Assembly (NCBI GenBank): GCA_964234715.1
Contig: OZ174282.1
DNA from: Podarcis melisellensis
Taxonomy: Eukaryota
Reading direction: 5' to 3' (one strand)
Length of the DNA stretch: 64,000 bases
Shown: positions 9,930 through 51,524 of the stretch, one piece after another
How positions within the stretch are numbered: position 1 is the first letter of the stretch
Layout: every line of letters starts with the position of its first letter
Made by a program: the position numbers and the translations under genes
Notes under the pieces: model-generated
Told to the model about the DNA's origin: nothing
What the model saw: only the letters and a program-made list of their open reading frames with translations
Database searches by the model: none

Positions 9930-12117
9930 ACATTCCCTTCGATTGCAGAAGACCTCAATGTATCACTGTTAACATTGCGAGCGAAAAATTTGCATAAATT
10001 CCCTTATTTTGCATAACACACCCTACATTTTGCTTTGCATGGGAATAGGCAAGACATGGAACTGCCTTTCCCCCAGTCATTGGAAATCTGCCTGTGCACT
10101 TCCTTTTGTTTTTCACATGCAAGCTGAACTACTGTACTCAGGAAGCTGAGTTCCGTACTGCTGTACAATATCCTGCAGGTTTTCTGTGCTGCTGCAGAAT
10201 TATTGGTTGCAGAATGCACTGATGTTATCCACAGAACATGGGGACCAGATGGCCATTCTAGATTTAAGTTCCACACCATATTAATCTGCCTGCCTGCCTG
10301 ACTTCAGAACACATTCCCAGTTCCCCAAAGGCACAGGGATCAATTCGCAGCTTGGTCTCAAGGGAAGGGAACTTTGCTGGCTTTTCTGCATTTCTCCGCT
10401 GAGCCATGTGTATCCTGAATCCTTCGCTCCAATGATCCTGAAAATGGAAGGAGTTACAGTGGCAAGCATAGTTTCCATGCCAACAGGACCAGGCTGCATG
10501 ACACAGGCTGTTTTGCTAGGGACGCTTCAGTCAGGTTTTACATTTCATATGTGTGTAAATTGAACGGGAAATTTAGGGCCGGCCCTACCATAAGATAGGA
10601 GACAGCTGCCTCCGGTGGTAGATATTACGTGCCATTCAAGGGCAGCAAATTGCCAGTTATTGGATTATTTTTATTTCCATGGTGTCACCTTTTCGATTTC
10701 CCCTCAGGCTGGTTCTAGAAGAAGTTAGACTGATTAAAATGTACGTTTGATTTCAAAACAGTTCCCTTAACACCACACTTTTTCTCCTCCAACAACAGTG
10801 CTTGAAAGTGATGTCTTCCAGATGAAAATACATTATTAGCACCATTTGTGAAAGCAACCACAATGGTTATGGAGGGGTGGCAGGATTTCTCTTCATCAGG
10901 GGCCAGCCCTTGAAGTTGATTTCATTGGACCCATTTCCAGATGTGCTAGGATCAGTTGATTGATGGCAGAGTCATGACAGGACAGTAAGAAACACTCCTT
11001 CACACACTGCGTAATTCCTTATGAAATTCTCCACCAAGTAAGATATGATCTTAGATGGCCTAAAAAAGGACACATCCATGGAGATGTTAACCCATGAGAG
11101 GTCAAATGGAACCTCCAAGTTCAGAGGCAGTATATCTATAATTGAGTGTTGGATACTAGAAACAAAGATCAGTGGGTGGACTTTATTCCCAGTATTTGTG
11201 CCTTTCTTGTTAGTGAGAACTTGAGGAAACAGCATGTGGGACTTAGAATGGGGGCACCTGCCTCATTTTCACAACTTAGGCTCCCCCACCTTTTGCCCTG
11301 CCAACATCTGATCTAAAGTAGAGAAGCATTCTGCAGCAGGTATGCTAGTAAAGAGTCATACAGCTGGAGAAGACTTCCAAGCCTAGTCACAAAAACACAA
11401 CGGAGGGAAAGCACAAACAGGCTATGCCTTTAGATTGCCCACCAGCTGGGCCATGCTGGCTTGGTTTTGTTCTGCTGTAAACCAGTATCATGAAACCTTT
11501 GGCCCTTCAGATGTCATCATCCCTGAACTTGCTGGCTGGAGCTGGTGGGAGCTGGAGTCCCATCAGCTCCAGAACATCGTCCCTGCTGTAAATGGCTGTG
11601 GACATCAACCATGATATAGCAATAAACAAAGAAAATAGACTCATCTAGCCATAATATGGACAGTTCGAAGTCTTAAGGGGCAAAGTTCCTTTGGTGGGCC
11701 CCTTCCTATGTGGTGGACCTCTTTATGATTGTTTTGTGTAGAGGCTAATTTCTAGCATTGTAGAGTAGCTGTTTTTCTCTTCAACTGCATGGAGCTGCAG
11801 AGCTAATGAGAGGCAGACACCTGCTGGCTACCATTTTGTTTCCCCCATAATTTATTGGAGATTGCTGGACAGGGCCCCTAGCAGTTGCCCAAGGATTCCA
11901 ACACCAGTCCTGCTAACACCAGTCCTGAACTGTGACTGACTACCTCTGCAAATTGGTCAACCTTCTCTGCATGCTACTTTTTCAGTCAAACACCGAAAAA
12001 ACATCTTACATCTAAAGATGCAGTAGTGTATGAATTGAAGAAGCATCTATTGAAATGCATGTCTCATACCAGTATATCTGGCCTGGAATATGGGACTGAC
12101 CACAGCTCCCTTTTGAG

Positions 12118-12253
12118 CAGGCATAGGCAAACTCGGCCCTCCAGATGTTTTGGGACTACAGCTCCCATCATCCCAAGCTAACAGCACCAGTGGTCAGGGA
12201 TGATGGGAATTGTAGTCCCAAAACATCTGGAGGGCTGAGTTTGCCTATGCCTG
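12118..12253. mobile_element. palindromic hAT MITE (136 bp)
   Basis: near-perfect fold-back caggcataggcaaactc...gagtttgcctatgcctg; TSD cttttgag / cctttgag. Confidence 0.9.
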
Positions 12254-12959
12254 CCTTTGAGAGTATGCTTAGTGAAAAATATGCACTTTGTCATGTGTGA
12301 AACAGCCCCAAGGATGTACCTTAAGATGGAAAGAGCCTTAGGAGGAATCAGCTCATTCATGCTTCAAGAACACATCTGGAGATGATCACTGGAGGTCAGG
12401 ACCAAGATTGGCAGTGGGAAAGTGTGTGAAGGAATGTGGATGTCGCTGTTGTCATGCTTGCAAGCAATGCCTTTGTCTCCTGTTCATTTCCCCCCTCTTT
12501 TCATGCAGCAGCTACAACGGAACTGGCAGGAAGGACCACATTTTTCAATTATTGTGATTCCTTTTTATAAGGTGCCAAGAGGATGGTTGGCAAGTAGAGT
12601 TCCTCCTGACATGGAAGCTCGTATACACACTCAGCGGCATCAAACCAAGGAAATTAACAATAGAATACCGTTCCCTCCACTACTACAACTTGCAGAGAAA
12701 CTGAACTGTGTCCACCCTGCAGGGCTGTCATGCTGTGCCAGGAGATAGAAGGTTTCTAACTTGGCAGATTTAACTGAGAGCTTCTCCTTAGAGGAATTTC
12801 AAAGGAAACTTAAATAATTTTGGCAGTTTCTCTGATGTGGTCCCAGACATCCCTTTTGTTTTGGGGGGAGTGTCACTGCATTTCGCCTAAAGCAAAAATG
12901 GAAACCACAAGTGGTGGAACCTTTTCACCAGACAGGACAATAGGAGTGGGGAAACTGTG

Positions 12960-13745
12960 GCTGTATACACACTGTCCCTTTAGAGCATATTCGAAGACCA
13001 TCTGCCCCCTCAAAGAATTAAGGGCATTGTAGTTAGTTAAGGGTTGATGGGAATGGTAACTGTGAGGAGTTGTGCTGGTCCTGTGGGTTTCCGTGAGGCA
13101 AGGTCTGAGTCCAGTCCGAGGTCGAGGGAGCAGTATTGAGGCCGTCCATCAAAGCTGAAGCTAGGTCCAAAGCAGGGAGTTGGGAGAGGTCAGGAGATCT
13201 GCAGGGCAGGGTGCAGGCAGGAACTGGCTACCAACAACGTTACTCCCGCAACTTGGGACTGGGGCTGGCTGGCTTTTATCTGCCCCGAGGCATAGGGCGG
13301 CCTTGGTCCACAGGTGACTTGCCTCTCCTGGCCTGGAGGTGAGCCCTCCTCCTGCAGGAACTTAGTTCCCTCCGCCTCTCTGTCCTGAGCCTCTGCAGCT
13401 CAGGAGAGGCTGGAGGGTTACTGGACCCAGAGGCAACCTCAGCTTTCCCTGACGGGGCTGAGAGTGGAACACCTGCAGGCAATGGGTCCTCCATCACCTC
13501 AGGAGCCTGAGCAGACTCAGCTGGTGTCTGCACCTGAGGATCCAGCACAGGTGGGGACCCTTCAGGCTCATGCCCCAGCCCTGGCTCAGCTGGTTCTGGA
13601 GGTGGGGAATCCTGTGCAGGCTGGGATTCCTCAGGTTCAGCTTCCAAGTCCGAATCCCAGGCCATCACAGGAGTAAACTACAGTACCCACAATTCTTTGA
13701 GGGAAATAATGTTCTTTGAATGTGCTTTAAAGGCATGGTGTGTGA
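12960..13745. mobile_element. palindromic MITE split by a solo LTR
   Basis: 12960-13070 joined to 13675-13745 gives a copy of the family seen at 15036-15208. Confidence 0.7.
13071..13669 (-). mobile_element. solo LTR (probably Gypsy-type), 599 bp
   Basis: TG...CA termini with short imperfect IR; exact 5-bp TSD ggagt (13066-70 / 13670-74); GATAAAAG TATA-like box on the minus strand at 13280-13273; no AATAAA seen. Confidence 0.8.
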
Positions 13746-15035: not shown

Positions 15036-15208
15036 AACACATTAATATATCTTTAAAGCACATTCGAAGCACATTCTTTCCCTCAGAGCATTCTGGACCT
15101 TGTAGTTTGTTAATGGTTGTAACTCTGTGAGGGGTAAACTACAGTGCCCAGAATTCTTTGAGGGAAAGAATGTGCTTTGGATGTGCTTTAAAGGTTTAAT
15201 GTGTACAC
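15036..15208. mobile_element. palindromic MITE (superfamily uncertain)
   Basis: ctttaaagcacattc..aagcacattctttccctca / tgagggaaagaatgtgctt..gatgtgctttaaag; related copy at ~45765-45920. Confidence 0.75.
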
Positions 15209-16125
15209 AGAACTGTGGTGTTCCATTCACATCTAGAGTAAGGCAGGAATGCCTTTGGATAGCCTTGGACTCCCCCACCCTCTGCCTAACCTACCACATA
15301 GGATTGTTGTGAAAATAGAACAGGGAGTGGAAAACCAGGTATGCTACCTTGTGCTTCCTTGGAAGACAGGTGTGTGTGAAGGGGGATCTAAATATAATGG
15401 ATAAATAAAACAAGCTCCTCAAATTTGGCGGAGACATCACCGATTAGCACACATCTTCATGAGGCTATCTTTGCACTCTCCCCCTTAGAATTTAAGAGGA
15501 ATCTGCATTATTAAGAAAACCTGGTGCCACATGCTCACACATACTGACTACAAAACACTGTGGGCTATGAAAAAGGAGAACAAGCAGCCTTTTCTGGAGA
15601 GAGTTTAAGGATAGGGAACAGAGATGTAGACTCACTGAGCACAATCCAGTGGGAACTTCTCTTCTAGTCTCGGTGAAATGAACAGGAGCTGTGAAAAAAG
15701 AATTCTGTTTGTATCATGTTTGGGAAGCAGGAAGTCATCGTTTTGGCCCCTTATTAAAAGGAATCACAGTAATTGAGAAGTGTCGTCCCTTAAAGCTACT
15801 GCATGAAGCTGGAAACCCTCAGTTTCTCTTTAGGCTTATGAGTTATTTAACAGCATTGCCATTACATTTTTATCTCACCTTTCTTCCAACATGGAGCATA
15901 AGGAGGCATTTGTGTGGTTCCTAGGAGCTTCAGCAAGCTGGTGCTGACCTCCCATGGCTTCAGGTTAGGATCCAGCATGTGGTATTTTCCAAGAAGCTCC
16001 AGGATACCTTTGGGTTGTGGGTAACATCATGTGTACTTGGCTTCAAACACCAGCAATGGGCTTGTGCTGGAGCTGGAGTAGGTGGTAACATGTGTACAGC
16101 CTGAGCCAGACCATTGCTCCATCTA

Positions 16126-26975: not shown

Positions 26976-28952
26976 ATATCAATGTGTGTGTATTTGTGTA
27001 TTTGCATCTAGAATTCGCATATTGCACTTCTGTGCAGAGACACATTTTGTATCTCACCATGGGCTTCCCTGGGTGAGTGCCTGGAACCTCTGGAATCTCA
27101 GACCTCTGAGAGACTGGGGTGGCCTGCAACAATATCATGTTTCTTCTAGTACTATATGTCTTGGGAGAGATTGTTCTTGCATTTCAAAAATGCCACGGCA
27201 AGGCCAAAAATTTATTATGTCTGATTGTAGGAAGTTTTTTGGACACAGAGTTTCCTTCAACATTTCCGTTTCAAATTGCCTGCTTGTTTCTTTACATACC
27301 ATTAGTATTATTATTGTTATGGGTGACGGTATTTTGAAAGACCTCCTGCATTATTTACATGTTTCCAAATGGGCTGCAAAGGCACTTTATATAATTACTG
27401 CTTCTCAGGCACTCTATCGTGTAGAGTACAAACAGCAACACCTTAATTAACTTCTTTTGGCGAGAAAACTCATTCATGTTCCCTGCCATCAGAGAACAAC
27501 GTGTTTTGGAATTTGATCTTGAGAAGGAGATGACAGCTAGGGACACGGTAGTGTTTGTTGACATTCTCCAGGTTCTCTAAAGATGCACAAAAAGGGTAGC
27601 CATGACATGAACATGACCCGACATGGATGGCTCCATAGTTACATGGATCTCTGTACTTCTAGGGATTAAAACACCTTGCACAATGACTTCCGTACCTTGA
27701 TGAGGTCCAAGACTGCTGAATGCCTCCTTTTCTAGCTGTGCTTTATTTTTCCAGAATGGAGATAGGCTTTTTTCCTCAAACAGAGTTGAAGGGAATTTGA
27801 AAGAAGGATCACAGCGCATCCCACTTTTGCTTCCAGTCAACAGTTTTAAAAAATGACAATAAAAAAACCTGCCAATTCTGTTTGCCTGCTGATGAGAGTT
27901 GTCACGACACTGCTGAAGTGTGGCAGAAACTTAACTTCCCTGGTTCAGCTCCTCTTCACCACAAGCCCATTACCAACTCCCCTGATGTTTGGGCTCAACT
28001 CATAATAGGCTCCACCTGTTGCGATTCTTGAGTGTCCTCCCCATTGCTGCCCTGCCCCCTCTTCCATCTCCCCGCCCATTTCCAATGCATGGCAGCAGGG
28101 ATGTGGAAGAATCCTATGGGGAGTTTCAATTAGGCCTTAAAGCAGGCAGGCATGGGAATGACACGTAAGAAAGGTGTAAGAAATCCATCCATCCAAGACG
28201 GATGTGACCAAACAGCACTACGGTTTGAAAGACATATTCCAGCTGTGCAAAAGCAGGTGTGGAACTTGAGGGGAAACAGTGTAGCCTGAGAAAAGTTTCC
28301 AAGGTTGAAGTAGAGAGTCTTGGAGCAGCACTACATTCAGCCCCTGGGTCTGAGGTTCTCCACCCCTGCCTTAATGGCACAGGCACAGTACTCAAGGCTG
28401 CCAGAAACCACGTGGGTGGGGGGATGTAGCCCAAGCTTTCACTGAGATGGCCACCCTGTGTTTGAACTGCACGACTTTGCTCGCAAGGCTGAATGCTCCT
28501 CCAGAAAGAAATATTCTGTCCACATAAATACTAAACGTTGTGCAGGCAGGGTCCGCGGCCTCACCTAGTTTTCAATAGGTAAAAATATTTTCTTCTGGAG
28601 GTATTTACCTGTATTGATGTTGCTGAAATTCACAACCACCAGCTCAGATTTGAACTTGGCCAACTCAGAATATGTTCTTTTCAGGCTCACAGTGCTTGAC
28701 CGCATTTCTGATTGAGTGGCATGTAACTCCCAGAGTTTTTGGCTCAGAATTTAAATTGAGCTGTCCCTCTCCTCCTTAGTGCCTTGAGTCTTGCAGTGAC
28801 AGCACCCTCCACACTCGGGGGATTTAGTTCAAGCATCCTAAAAATTACACATTCCTGAAGTTTCCTATCCCTATCCTGGGTTCAGCAGTACATCAGGGAC
28901 AAGACTCTGGGGTGGTGGTGCTGGTGCTGGTAAGGATTCAGGTGCCCTAGAC

Positions 28953-29646
28953 CAGTGTTTCCCAACCGGTGTTCCGCGGCACACGAGTGTGCCGTGAGAC
29001 GTTGCCTCGTGTGCCGCGAGATGCCTGGAGGGAGGCGGGCGAGTCGGGCGGCGAGAGGCGGGGCGGCGGCGGCGAGGAGAGGCCGCGCCTCCTGCTGCTG
29101 CCTGGTGCTCCTCCTCGCAGCCGGCAGCGCTGCCTGGGCGCCTCCGCGCGACTCTGCCTCGCTGGGTTTGGTCTCCCAGCAGAGACGGGTCACACGCGCC
29201 CCTCCCTCCCTCCCTCAGCCTGCGCGGAGGGAGAGCCAGAGAGAGGCATCGCTCCTGCGCGGCGGGAGAGGGAGCAGCCGGAGCGATGCCCCAAACGAAC
29301 GCATGGGACCGGAGGGGAAATCCTCTCCGAGGCGGATTGAGCGCAGCTGAGAGAAGCCTTTCGAGGAGCTGCCGTGTCCCCTGGAAACCCCCTTCCCAGC
29401 TCTGCCTCAGCCGCCGCCGCCTCAGTTGCCGCCGTCCCTCAGTCCCTCGCTCTGCTGCCTCCTCCCACCCCCAAAGCTTGGAGGTTCCCCAGCAAGGGGG
29501 AGGGAAAAAACTTTCACTTTTGTGCGTCCCTCCCGGCGTGACGCTGCACGCTGACGTCACGGGGCGGGGCTTTAATGGTGGTGTGCCGCGAGATTTTTTT
29601 TCAGTAAACAGGTGTGCCGTTGCCCAAAAACGTTTGGGAAACACTG
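28953..29646. mobile_element. young hAT (Charlie-like) non-autonomous element with CpG-rich interior
   Basis: TIR cagtgtttcccaa / ttgggaaacactg (13/13); TSD ccctagac / ccctagaa; subterminal gtgtgccg repeats at both ends. Confidence 0.92.
29552..29570 (+). promoter_or_regulatory. adjacent CRE and GC box
   Basis: TGACGTCA (29552-59), c, GGGGCGGGGC (29561-70). Confidence 0.5.
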
Positions 29647-30139
29647 CCCTAGAAAACTACATTTTCCAGCAGGTCACTGTTATCCATCAGCTGTGGTCCT
29701 GCATTCTCTGGGAAGGTCAGCGGATCTCTGGATCGGTGGTCTCAACATCCCCAACATTGCCACAACTTCTCAGTGCTGCAGTGGGGAGTGCACCTCACTG
29801 TGCCCCATCCCTGTGAATGCAATGCTGCCACCACTGTGAGATCACTGCTGCTGCTCCAGCCCCCTTCATGAATCCCCACTATTATCATCCCTGATCCTGG
29901 GAGAGCCTTTTGCTTGAAATCCCAGGGAGCCACTTTCAGTCGGTGTAGATAATCTCATTGTGTGGTATATTGCTCATGGTTTCTAGCAGCCCAGGACACT
30001 GTCCTCTTAGGTCCAATGGAGGCCTAAACCAAAGCCTCTCTGCTTCCCGTGAGTCTTCCACGGTCTCCTTGCCATGTACATGTGGGTGCTGAAGAGAAGA
30101 GGTCACAAACAGAGGGTCTGTCTGGGATGCTGACAGACC

Positions 30140-50685: not shown

Positions 50686-51524
50686 TGTCAGGCTTGGGGG
50701 ATTCTTTCCTCCCTCAGCAGCATCAAGGATCAAAGAAGTTCATATTTATGGTTTTATTTAGTTCTCGTGGCGCAAGACAAGAATCCAGTCCTTAACTCCA
50801 TCATGACGCTGCTCACTCTGCGCTCCTCCTCTTCTTTCCCCAGCAACAGCCTGTGGCCCTATGAGTGGCCTCAGGAGTCAAATGTCTTTGAGCCCTTTGC
50901 TCTTGAATTCTAAGTGAGCTTTGAGTATGCAGAGATGGTGGCGCTTCTATTCTTTCCACAGGTGTCTCTGCTGGCAGCTCTCCCACTTCCCCTCCTTCTC
51001 CTAACACCTCATAACTTGGAAGCTCTGGGTTCTGCTGCAATTCATATTTTTTTAAATAAATTTTTGTAAGTTTTTTTAAACATATTATTTCCAACAGTAA
51101 TTAAACATACTTTTACATCGTATGCCATTTTTTTACTTCCATCAATCACATCTGAAAATTTTCCAATCTATTCACTTAATATACATTTACATTCGCTATT
51201 ACATTTAAGTCTCATATCTAATATGTCTATTCTTTCTCTACTTTGCAATATTTCATATGCTTCTTCTTACAAAACATCTTGTAGTCCTACTAGCGTAATT
51301 TGTTGATTACAGTTGCTCTTCAAATAGTTCGTATGTTTCTTCCAATCTTCTGTGAATCTCTGGTCCCTCAGGTTTCGGATCCTTCCGGGTTCTGCTGCAA
51401 TTCAAGCCTGTCTCCCTCTTCTTTTGAAACTACTGGAGAAGGGGGGCGGCGACCCTTCTCTGAGGGAAGCAAAGGAAGAGGAGGGGGCAATTCCCAGCCT
51501 TCCCCTTCAGTCCAGTTCCTGACA
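50686..51524 (-). mobile_element. solo-LTR-like element containing an L1 insertion
   Basis: tgtcagg...cctgaca 7-bp terminal IR; AATAAA on the minus strand ~70 bp from the end; no clean TSD. Confidence 0.7.
51045..51383 (-). mobile_element. L1 LINE 3' end
   Basis: exact 18-bp TSD gggttctgctgcaattca (51027-44 / 51387-404); RIRNLRDQRFTEDWKKHTNYL ORF2 end; A-rich tail. Confidence 0.85.

What the first reader, a model, noticed from the sequence alone, without database searches (positions are those of the whole stretch)
13071..13669. Solo LTR whose U3 is an intact 130-codon reading frame
Seen: on the sense (minus) strand the frame opens at LTR nucleotide 2 (t-GTG-ATG-GCC-TGG, V-M-A-W, ATG in good Kozak context). 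It runs 130 codons and stops at the TAA inside the TATA-like GATAAAAG. The product is acidic and Pro-rich, then Arg-rich (SPELQRLRTERRRELSSCRRRAHLQARR). Known: LTR-overlapping ORFs exist in some retroviruses (HIV nef, MMTV sag), and Gypsy pol frames often end just inside the 3' LTR. Inference: this family encodes a disordered accessory protein, or a long integrase tail, inside its LTR. The unrelated LTR at 50686-51524 shows the same layout.
Basis: partly seen in the sequence, partly recalled or inferred. Interest (0 to 1): 0.7.

Follow-up and report, generated by a model that had tools for sequence, protein, structure and literature searches.

The report
Retrotransposon integrase tail hidden in LTR
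This stretch is the leftover end-repeat of a jumping gene, and its open reading frame is the floppy tail of the element's integrase protein; in most relatives the tail ends in a short motif matching the one HMGN proteins use to grip nucleosomes, so it likely helps tether the element to chromatin, though that binding is untested and this particular copy is a decaying relic.

Summary
Observation confirmed: a 599-nt solo LTR (TG...CA ends, exact 5-bp target duplication) with a 130-codon frame from nucleotide 2. It belongs to an abundant Tf1/Sushi-type chromovirus of a lizard genome, probably lacertid. In full-length relatives one Gag-Pol frame runs through the chromodomain and PPT into this LTR frame, so it is an integrase tail, not a separate gene. 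It lies upstream of the LTR's inferred transcription start. Between subfamilies the frame is kept (in-frame indels of 18 and 30 nt; dN/dS about 0.5 against 1.2 in the other frames). Among solo copies it decays neutrally (24 of 51 intact). The tail ends in RRSARL, matching the HMGN/Dsup/Dot5 nucleosome acidic-patch motif; the window copy has decayed to RRRAHL. The same motif lies near the C-terminus of 3 of 115 distant chromodomain tails. A second chromovirus lineage in this genome has a similar LTR-encoded tail without the motif, so a nuclear-localisation role is a real rival. Binding is untested. Pol frames entering the 3' LTR are known in plant chromoviruses; I found no paper on this motif in a retrotransposon. 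The scan earlier noted other chromovirus/gypsy tails in two other genomes, not this family.

The parts
13071..13669 (-). Solo LTR (599 nt, TGTG...CACA) of a Tf1/Sushi-type chromovirus
   Evidence: linked to gag in L235/L236 and to the pol end in L355
13670..13674 (-). 5' copy of the 5-bp target-site duplication
13066..13070 (-). 3' copy of the 5-bp target-site duplication
13276..13668 (-). 130-codon frame plus stop; the C-terminal tail of Gag-Pol after the chromodomain when the LTR is a 3' LTR
13414..13668 (-). Acidic, proline-rich part of the tail (residues 1-85), inferred disordered spacer
   Evidence: composition; no Pfam or PDB match
13324..13398 (-). Basic segment LQRL...QARR (residues 91-115)
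13336..13353 (-). Position of the HMGN-like RRSARL motif; reads RRRAHL in this copy
   Evidence: motif definition from PMC12487698 and PMC13347269
13273..13280 (-). TATA-like GATAAAAG holding the stop codon
   Evidence: sequence; promoter role inferred
13239..13252 (-). Sequence that pairs with the bases just after the 5' LTR in full-length copies (self-priming site, inferred start of R)
12967..13034 (.). One arm of the inverted-repeat element into which the LTR inserted (not part of the LTR)
   Evidence: I7
13676..13743 (.). Other arm of that inverted-repeat element
   Evidence: I7 and D15
50686..51524 (-). Unrelated older LTR with a frame from nt 2, split by an insertion at about 51044-51386

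Best explanation
The element is a solo LTR of a chromovirus, and its U3 frame is the C-terminal tail of the Gag-Pol/integrase protein, which likely acts as a second chromatin tether beside the chromodomain. Shown: in full-length relatives one frame encodes Gag, protease, RT, RNase H, integrase, SH3 and chromodomain, then crosses the PPT and continues 109-120 codons in the 3' LTR (130 in the window's subfamily, where the junction itself was seen only in one decayed copy); the frame is conserved between subfamilies; solo copies decay neutrally. Inferred: the tail is translated only from the full-length RNA and stays on the integrase; the acidic Pro-rich part is a flexible spacer; the RRSARL motif would dock on the H2A-H2B acidic patch as in HMGN, Dsup and Dot5, holding the pre-integration complex on nucleosomes while the chromodomain reads histone marks. 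The window copy is probably untranslated and its motif has decayed. Confidence in the identity as an integrase tail is about 0.97; the number given here is for the full mechanism.
For: Continuity: 1573-1575-codon frames through the junction in L241, L242, L243, L252 and an in-frame junction in L245 and L249; domain order by Pfam; 5 of 6 members of the P. muralis cluster that reach the chromodomain end carry the tail. The window's own subfamily: L235/L236 have a 5' LTR 93% identical over U3 followed by the same gag, and L355 has a 92% identical LTR directly after the pol end and PPT. Selection: window subfamily against the others dN/dS 0.49 in frame versus 1.25 and 1.16 in the other two sense frames (62 x 22 copies); with intact copies only 0.46 (CI 0.32-0.69), or 0.57 (0.38-0.84) with transitions weighted; lineage-level indels 18 and 30 nt, tail lengths 111/117/120/130. 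Junction frame: in frame in 40 of 78 older-subfamily junctions, the modal class, with shifts on both sides (P=0.0008 against 1/3); in young copies the shifted junctions are scattered over sublineages that also hold in-frame copies. Motif: the helix plus RRSARL shows 4 synonymous and no replacement differences between lineages; intact in 24 of 30 3'-LTR tails; RRS[AS]R[LI] in 3 of 115 distant chromodomain tails, two of them 4 residues from the C-terminus, with 0 of 5000 shuffles reaching 3. HMGN RRSARLSA, Dsup RRSSRLTS and Dot5 RRSARIAT bind the acidic patch (PMC12487698, PMC13347269; passages).
Against: Binding was not shown by any search. A second chromovirus lineage in this genome also reads 96-104 codons into its 3' LTR (10 of 20 fetched copies) but ends in a different basic cluster without RRSARL; 112 of 115 distant tails lack the motif. 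Selection on the tail is weak beside integrase (pooled 0.56 versus 0.16), and its middle and last residues are near neutral. dS in the tail is about half that in integrase and the motif's codons are nearly invariant as DNA, so DNA-level promoter constraint could mimic protein constraint. 38 of 78 older junctions and 10 of 49 young full-length frames are shifted, so tail-less copies are common. The distant-motif count is biased: both searches used queries that contain the motif, the pattern was chosen after seeing it, and some of those tails are not retroelements. No in-frame junction was seen for the window's own subfamily; the one found (L355) is a decayed, shifted copy.
Confidence: 0.45

Rival explanations
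1. It is the integrase tail, but the basic segment is a nuclear-localisation or general nucleic-acid-binding signal, and the RRSARL match is incidental.
For: The second lineage in this genome and a Rhineura element end in other basic clusters after an S/T-P site, without RRSARL. Basic C-terminal NLSs in LTR-retrotransposon integrases are recalled from Ty1 and Ty3, not from a call. Six-residue Arg-rich motifs arise easily in G/A-rich U3 sequence.
Against: The exact S-A-R-L/I core recurs near the C-terminus in unrelated chromodomain tails more than shuffles give, and the non-basic residues S, A and L are kept between lineages. The two roles are not exclusive.
Confidence: 0.3
2. The tail is tolerated read-through: pol lost its stop, U3 is open because it is GC/purine-rich, and the apparent selection reflects DNA-level promoter and att-site constraint.
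For: 15% of shuffles have some open frame of this length; dS is depressed in U3; shifted junctions are frequent; the middle of the tail has dN close to dS; many chromovirus pol frames run a few codons into the LTR.
Against: The low dN/dS is specific to the pol frame; lineage indels are multiples of three while 13 of 26 shared indels after the stop are not; the in-frame junction stays modal despite frequent slippage and no tail-less clade was seen among 26 young copies; the N-terminal 28 codons have dN 0.10 against dS 0.36.
Confidence: 0.17
3. The frame is a separate accessory gene like nef or sag, started at its own ATG, or a host-co-opted gene at this locus.
For: There is an ATG at codon 2; some P. 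muralis gene models begin at this ATG and join it to gag (P0001, P0043, P0045).
Against: No stop or separate start lies between chromodomain and tail in intact copies; the frame is upstream of the inferred transcription start; those gene models join it to gag at three different points, as automated mis-joins would; solo copies decay neutrally (27 of 33 private indels in the frame shift it) and this copy has lost two motif residues.
Confidence: 0.04

Closest known systems
[quoted passage not shown]
   Same: Gag-PR-RT-RH-IN-SH3-chromodomain order, no tRNA primer site but a self-priming complement, TG...CA ends, 5-bp target duplication.
   Different: A 110-130 residue, selected tail after the chromodomain, encoded in the 3' LTR and ending in RRSARL. 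No tree against named reference elements was built.
Plant CRM group A chromoviruses with the CR motif (PMC3059260, PMC6317226, passages); Beta Bingo1-4 and 7 (PMC3605345, passages)
   Same: The pol frame extends into the 3' LTR; in CRM-A the LTR-encoded part is a putative chromatin-targeting domain.
   Different: In CRM-A the CR motif replaces the chromodomain; here a canonical chromodomain is kept and the tail is added. No similarity to the CR motif was tested. Bingo elements have chromodomain plus an LTR extension, but the passages seen assign it no motif or function.
HMGN, tardigrade Dsup and yeast Dot5 nucleosome-binding motif (PMC12487698, PMC13347269, passages)
   Same: RRSARL core (6 of 8 residues of the HMGN consensus, including the three arginines) in a low-complexity protein with acidic regions.
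   Different: Followed by K/Q-A rather than S-A; no HMG14_17 Pfam match for the tail; part of a retrotransposon polyprotein; binding untested.
Viral chromatin tethers: foamy virus Gag, KSHV LANA, CMV IE1 (PMC9040877, passages)
   Same: A short arginine-anchor peptide that tethers a foreign genome to the nucleosome acidic patch (the proposed role here).
   Different: Different sequence motif; here it sits on integrase, not Gag; that review's text has no mention of retrotransposons.
HIV nef and MMTV sag (recalled, not from a call)
   Same: Coding sequence overlapping U3.
   Different: Those are separate genes from spliced RNAs; this frame is fused to pol.

Membership tests
Solo LTR | TG...CA ends with a target-site duplication and no internal sequence | tested here: met
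   Exact 5-bp duplication in the window and in 17 of the 30 closest copies
Solo LTR | Same sequence flanks gag/pol in other copies | tested here: met
   L235/L236 (5' LTR plus gag) and L355 (pol end, PPT, LTR) for the window's subfamily; paired LTRs in sister subfamilies
Chromovirus (Ty3/Gypsy) | PR-RT-RH-IN order with a chromodomain after integrase | tested here: met
   Pfam on L241
Tf1/Sushi group | Self-priming: sequence after the 5' LTR complementary to the transcript's 5' end, no tRNA primer site | tested here: met
   Pairing of about 13 bases in the fold of L251 (the whole fold is not better than shuffles, z 0.46); the post-LTR sequence does not begin TGG
Tf1/Sushi group | RT phylogeny with Sushi-ichi/Amn elements | not tested
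   No reference sequences were fetched
CRM group A (CR motif) | Pol frame extends into the 3' LTR | tested here: met
CRM group A (CR motif) | CR motif in place of a chromodomain; plant host | tested here: not met
   A canonical chromodomain is present; vertebrate host. Not a member
HMGN-like acidic-patch motif | RRS[AS]R[LI] core with three arginines | tested here: met
   Family copies; not met by the window copy (RRRAHL)
HMGN-like acidic-patch motif | Acidic-patch-dependent nucleosome binding | not testable with these tools
   Needs a binding assay
HMGN protein family | HMG14_17 profile match | tested here: not met
   No Pfam family on the tail. Not an HMGN protein
nef/sag-type accessory gene | Own start and RNA, separate from pol | tested here: not met
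   Frame is continuous with pol

The most novel reading that the evidence does not exclude
Chromoviruses of lizards, and some very distant chromoviruses, have built a second targeting module into their LTR: an integrase tail ending in an HMGN-type RRSARL peptide that clamps the pre-integration complex on the nucleosome acidic patch. That would be a retrotransposon using HMGN mimicry, paired with a chromodomain as a two-point nucleosome reader, with a slippery G-run at the PPT switching the tail on or off in daughter copies.
Probability: 0.4. Interest if true: 0.75.

Novelty: new variant of a known kind. Interest (0 to 1): 0.5.

Why it matters
How chromoviruses pick integration sites is only partly explained by the chromodomain. 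An LTR-encoded acidic-patch motif would give a short, directly testable second determinant, would extend HMGN-like motifs to mobile elements, and would parallel the plant CR motif and foamy-virus Gag. It also shows U3 carrying promoter and protein code at once, and warns annotators: thousands of solo LTRs in these genomes hold a 130-codon ATG frame that gene predictors join to other exons. The window copy itself is an ordinary decaying solo LTR.

Tried and rejected
Two PPT-pattern searches returned mostly solo copies and showed no shared flank in 150-nt comparisons; the link to pol came from the protein search and the gag search. A suspected LTR pair on C8 was two separate copies. Pfam and PDB gave nothing for the tail. 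Complex prediction of a tail segment with H2A and H2B from this genome: no verdict (score 0.02); PMC12487698 reports that AlphaFold 3 also fails on HMGN2. The IQ-TREE codon run returned no values. The shared-versus-private substitution test was not significant in any set (P 0.08-0.6). RNA: no RNA holder listed; contigs of three runs guessed to be RNA covered the repeat family but no unique flank, which says nothing on expression of this copy. Whether the G-run variants are biological or assembly errors stays open, as no reads were laid on the junction. The protein atlas gave no answer. No pol junction was found for the LTR at 50686-51524. Literature searches with no paper: retrotransposon+integrase+acidic patch+HMGN, RRSxR terms, Podarcis+gypsy+LTR+chromovirus; two searches listed 7 and 2 papers, none on this by title or abstract start. 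Subscription journals, Repbase/Dfam/GyDB entries and all supplements were not seen, so the tail may be noted there.

Full report
Observation. The minus strand from 13669 to 13071 is a 599-nt element with TGTG...CACA ends and an exact 5-bp duplication, inserted in a small inverted-repeat element. A frame opens at its second base, runs 130 codons and stops at the TAA in GATAAAAG. It is acidic and proline-rich for 85 residues, then basic. Dinucleotide shuffles leave this frame open in 45 of 3000 trials and any frame in 462 of 3000. The genome is a 1.57-Gb assembly; I infer a lacertid lizard from the likeness of the element's proteins to Podarcis entries.

Family. A DNA search gave 2431 candidates, of which 40 were scored; 558 places carry the exact 22-nt 5' end. 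Of the 30 closest copies, 17 have an exact 5-bp duplication and 19 are open for exactly 130 codons. For a sample not chosen by the frame I fetched the first 79 of the 100 places listed; 51 could be cut out whole, and 24 of those are open for 130 codons.

Link to pol. A search for longer homologues found one protein, a P. muralis model joining the first 70 residues to a Ty3/DUF4939 Gag. Searching that Gag in the genome returned full-length elements; by hand count 39 of 150 rows have open frames of 1573-1581 codons and 10 have 1464-1472. In L241, L242, L243 and L252 one frame encodes Gag, protease, RT, RNase H, integrase, SH3 and chromodomain, crosses the PPT and continues 109-111 codons in the 3' LTR, entering at LTR nt 2 with V-M-A-W exactly as in the window. 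Those LTRs are 72-78% identical to the window's U3 over aligned bases. The window's own subfamily is tied to the same element by L235/L236 (5' LTR 93% identical over U3, then gag) and L355 (pol end 86% identical to L242, PPT, then an LTR 92% identical over U3); L355 is decayed and its junction is out of frame. P. muralis proteins show the same fusion in 5 of the 6 cluster members that reach the chromodomain end.

Where transcription starts. All 5' LTRs are followed by a sequence that is not a tRNA primer site but pairs with the stretch at window 13252-13239. Self-priming is described for Tf1/Sushi elements (PMC6317226, passages). This places the RNA's 5' end about 25 nt after the TATA-like box, so the whole frame is in U3 (inference). 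The tail would be translated only from the 3' LTR of a full-length RNA. In a solo LTR it would need read-through from a host promoter.

Selection. All values are pairwise between real copies. Within the window's subfamily decay looks neutral: dN/dS 0.68 over all 62 copies, 0.74-0.87 over intact ones with intervals including 1; private changes are 70 synonymous, 142 replacement and 7 stops; 27 of 33 private indels in the frame shift it. Between that subfamily and the others dN/dS is 0.49 in the pol frame against 1.25 and 1.16 in the other sense frames (five second or near-duplicate LTRs dropped), and 0.46 (0.32-0.69) or 0.57 (0.38-0.84) on 29 x 19 intact copies. Lineage-level indels in the frame are 18 and 30 nt; one 1-nt gap was shared by two copies; 13 of 26 shared indels after the stop are not multiples of three. 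Constraint is strongest in the first 28 codons and the basic segment and absent in the middle and the last residues. Against integrase it is weak (0.56 versus 0.16 pooled over 31 copies, frameshifted rows included), and dS is about half as high in the tail, so DNA-level constraint on U3 is also present. A shared-versus-private test was not significant.

The junction. A G-run beside the PPT varies in length. Among 78 older-subfamily junctions 40 are in frame, 22 are one base short (five of them one tandem array), 13 one base long and 3 otherwise shifted (counted by hand; P=0.0008 against one third). In 26 young copies that I picked (10 for being shifted), shifted junctions fall in several sublineages that also hold in-frame copies. 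So shifts recur and no tail-less clade was seen. If they are real, keeping the in-frame state modal implies that in-frame copies are the progenitors; if they are assembly errors, the tail is simply always fused. My first seven older junctions were 1 in frame and 6 shifted.

The motif. The basic segment ends in RRSARL then K/Q-A. HMGN proteins bind the nucleosome acidic patch through RRSARLSA, Dsup through RRSSRLTS and yeast Dot5 through RRSARIAT (PMC12487698 and PMC13347269, passages). The motif is intact in 24 of 30 3'-LTR tails; in the 51 unbiased solo copies the core R-S-A-R-L-Q reads intact in 27, most losses being at one CpG codon. Between lineages the helix plus motif shows four synonymous and no replacement differences. 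The window copy reads RRRAHL. Among 115 single-chromodomain tails from two database searches, three unnamed ENA proteins carry RRS[AS]R[LI], two of them four residues from the end; 0 of 5000 shuffles reached three, and 1 of 5000 reached two among the 87 from the library search. Two have retrotransposon domains by Pfam, the third only a chromodomain. Both queries contained the motif and the pattern was set after seeing it, so this is suggestive only.

Against generality. A second young chromovirus lineage in this genome reads 96-104 codons into its 3' LTR in 10 of 20 fetched copies, in the same phase, and ends in a different basic cluster without RRSARL. Rhineura, Naja and Salvator proteins also show acidic tails without it. 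An LTR-encoded acidic-then-basic tail therefore looks common in squamate chromoviruses, while the HMGN-type motif is limited to some. The LTR at 50686-51524 fits the layout loosely but is split by an insertion and was not tied to a pol.

Mechanism. Shown: fusion to pol, moderate selection between lineages, neutral decay of solo copies. Inferred: a flexible spacer carries an arginine-anchor peptide that docks on H2A-H2B and tethers the integration complex, alongside the chromodomain (0.45). Rivals: nuclear-localisation or general basic tail (0.3), tolerated read-through (0.17), separate accessory gene (0.04).

Comparison with what is known. Pol frames entering the 3' LTR are described for plant CRM group A, where the LTR-encoded CR motif replaces the chromodomain, and for some Beta Bingo elements (PMC3059260, PMC3605345, PMC6317226; passages). 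Acidic-patch tethers are known from foamy virus Gag, LANA and IE1 (PMC9040877, passages). Searches showed no paper placing an HMGN-type motif on a retrotransposon integrase; the library lacks most subscription papers and repeat databases, and no supplements were read.

Verdict. A real feature, correctly seen. It is an integrase tail of a known kind of element, in a new variant with a testable chromatin-tether motif. The window copy is an ordinary relic. Interest 0.5.

Noticed in passing
L335-L354 (G000, several contigs): A second young chromovirus lineage (pol frames of about 1370-1420 codons) has a divergent chromodomain, a long acidic stretch before the PPT and about 100 more codons in the 3' LTR, entered in the same phase, ending in a T/S-P-x-x-R-R basic cluster. 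Eight of 20 fetched copies stop before the LTR, several near an AG-repeat.
   Followed up: partly
PPT-side G-run of full-length copies (L356-L375, L376-L405): The run varies by -2 to +3 nt; shifted copies end pol at or just inside the LTR start. Shifts recur in separate sublineages. Slippage or assembly error not resolved.
   Followed up: partly
G000:C1: Only 4 of 62 listed copies lie in the central 83 Mb of this 137-Mb contig; the rest cluster at both ends.
   Followed up: no
G000:C19: Full-length and decayed chromovirus copies are strongly concentrated on this 39-Mb contig, including dozens of near-identical 343-codon gag copies; it may be a non-recombining sex chromosome (inference).
   Followed up: no
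P0001, P0043, P0045: Podarcis muralis database proteins that join the 5'-LTR frame to gag at different points; likely gene-prediction artefacts.
   Followed up: partly
P0067, P0147, P0078: Rhineura, Naja and Salvator chromodomain proteins also continue through a G-[DS]-[SNG]-V-M junction into acidic tails, so LTR-encoded tails may be widespread in squamates; their LTR boundaries were not checked.
   Followed up: partly
window 12117-12254, 12961-13743, 15046-15210: Several short inverted-repeat (MITE-like) elements surround the LTR; one is its insertion site.
   Followed up: no
window 28871-29816: GC-rich island (62% GC in 29001-30000) with long open frames on both strands, probably a CpG-island promoter.
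   Followed up: no
L008, L025, L133, L245: Copies of this LTR inserted next to or inside other copies, and one inside the tail region of another chromovirus.
   Followed up: no
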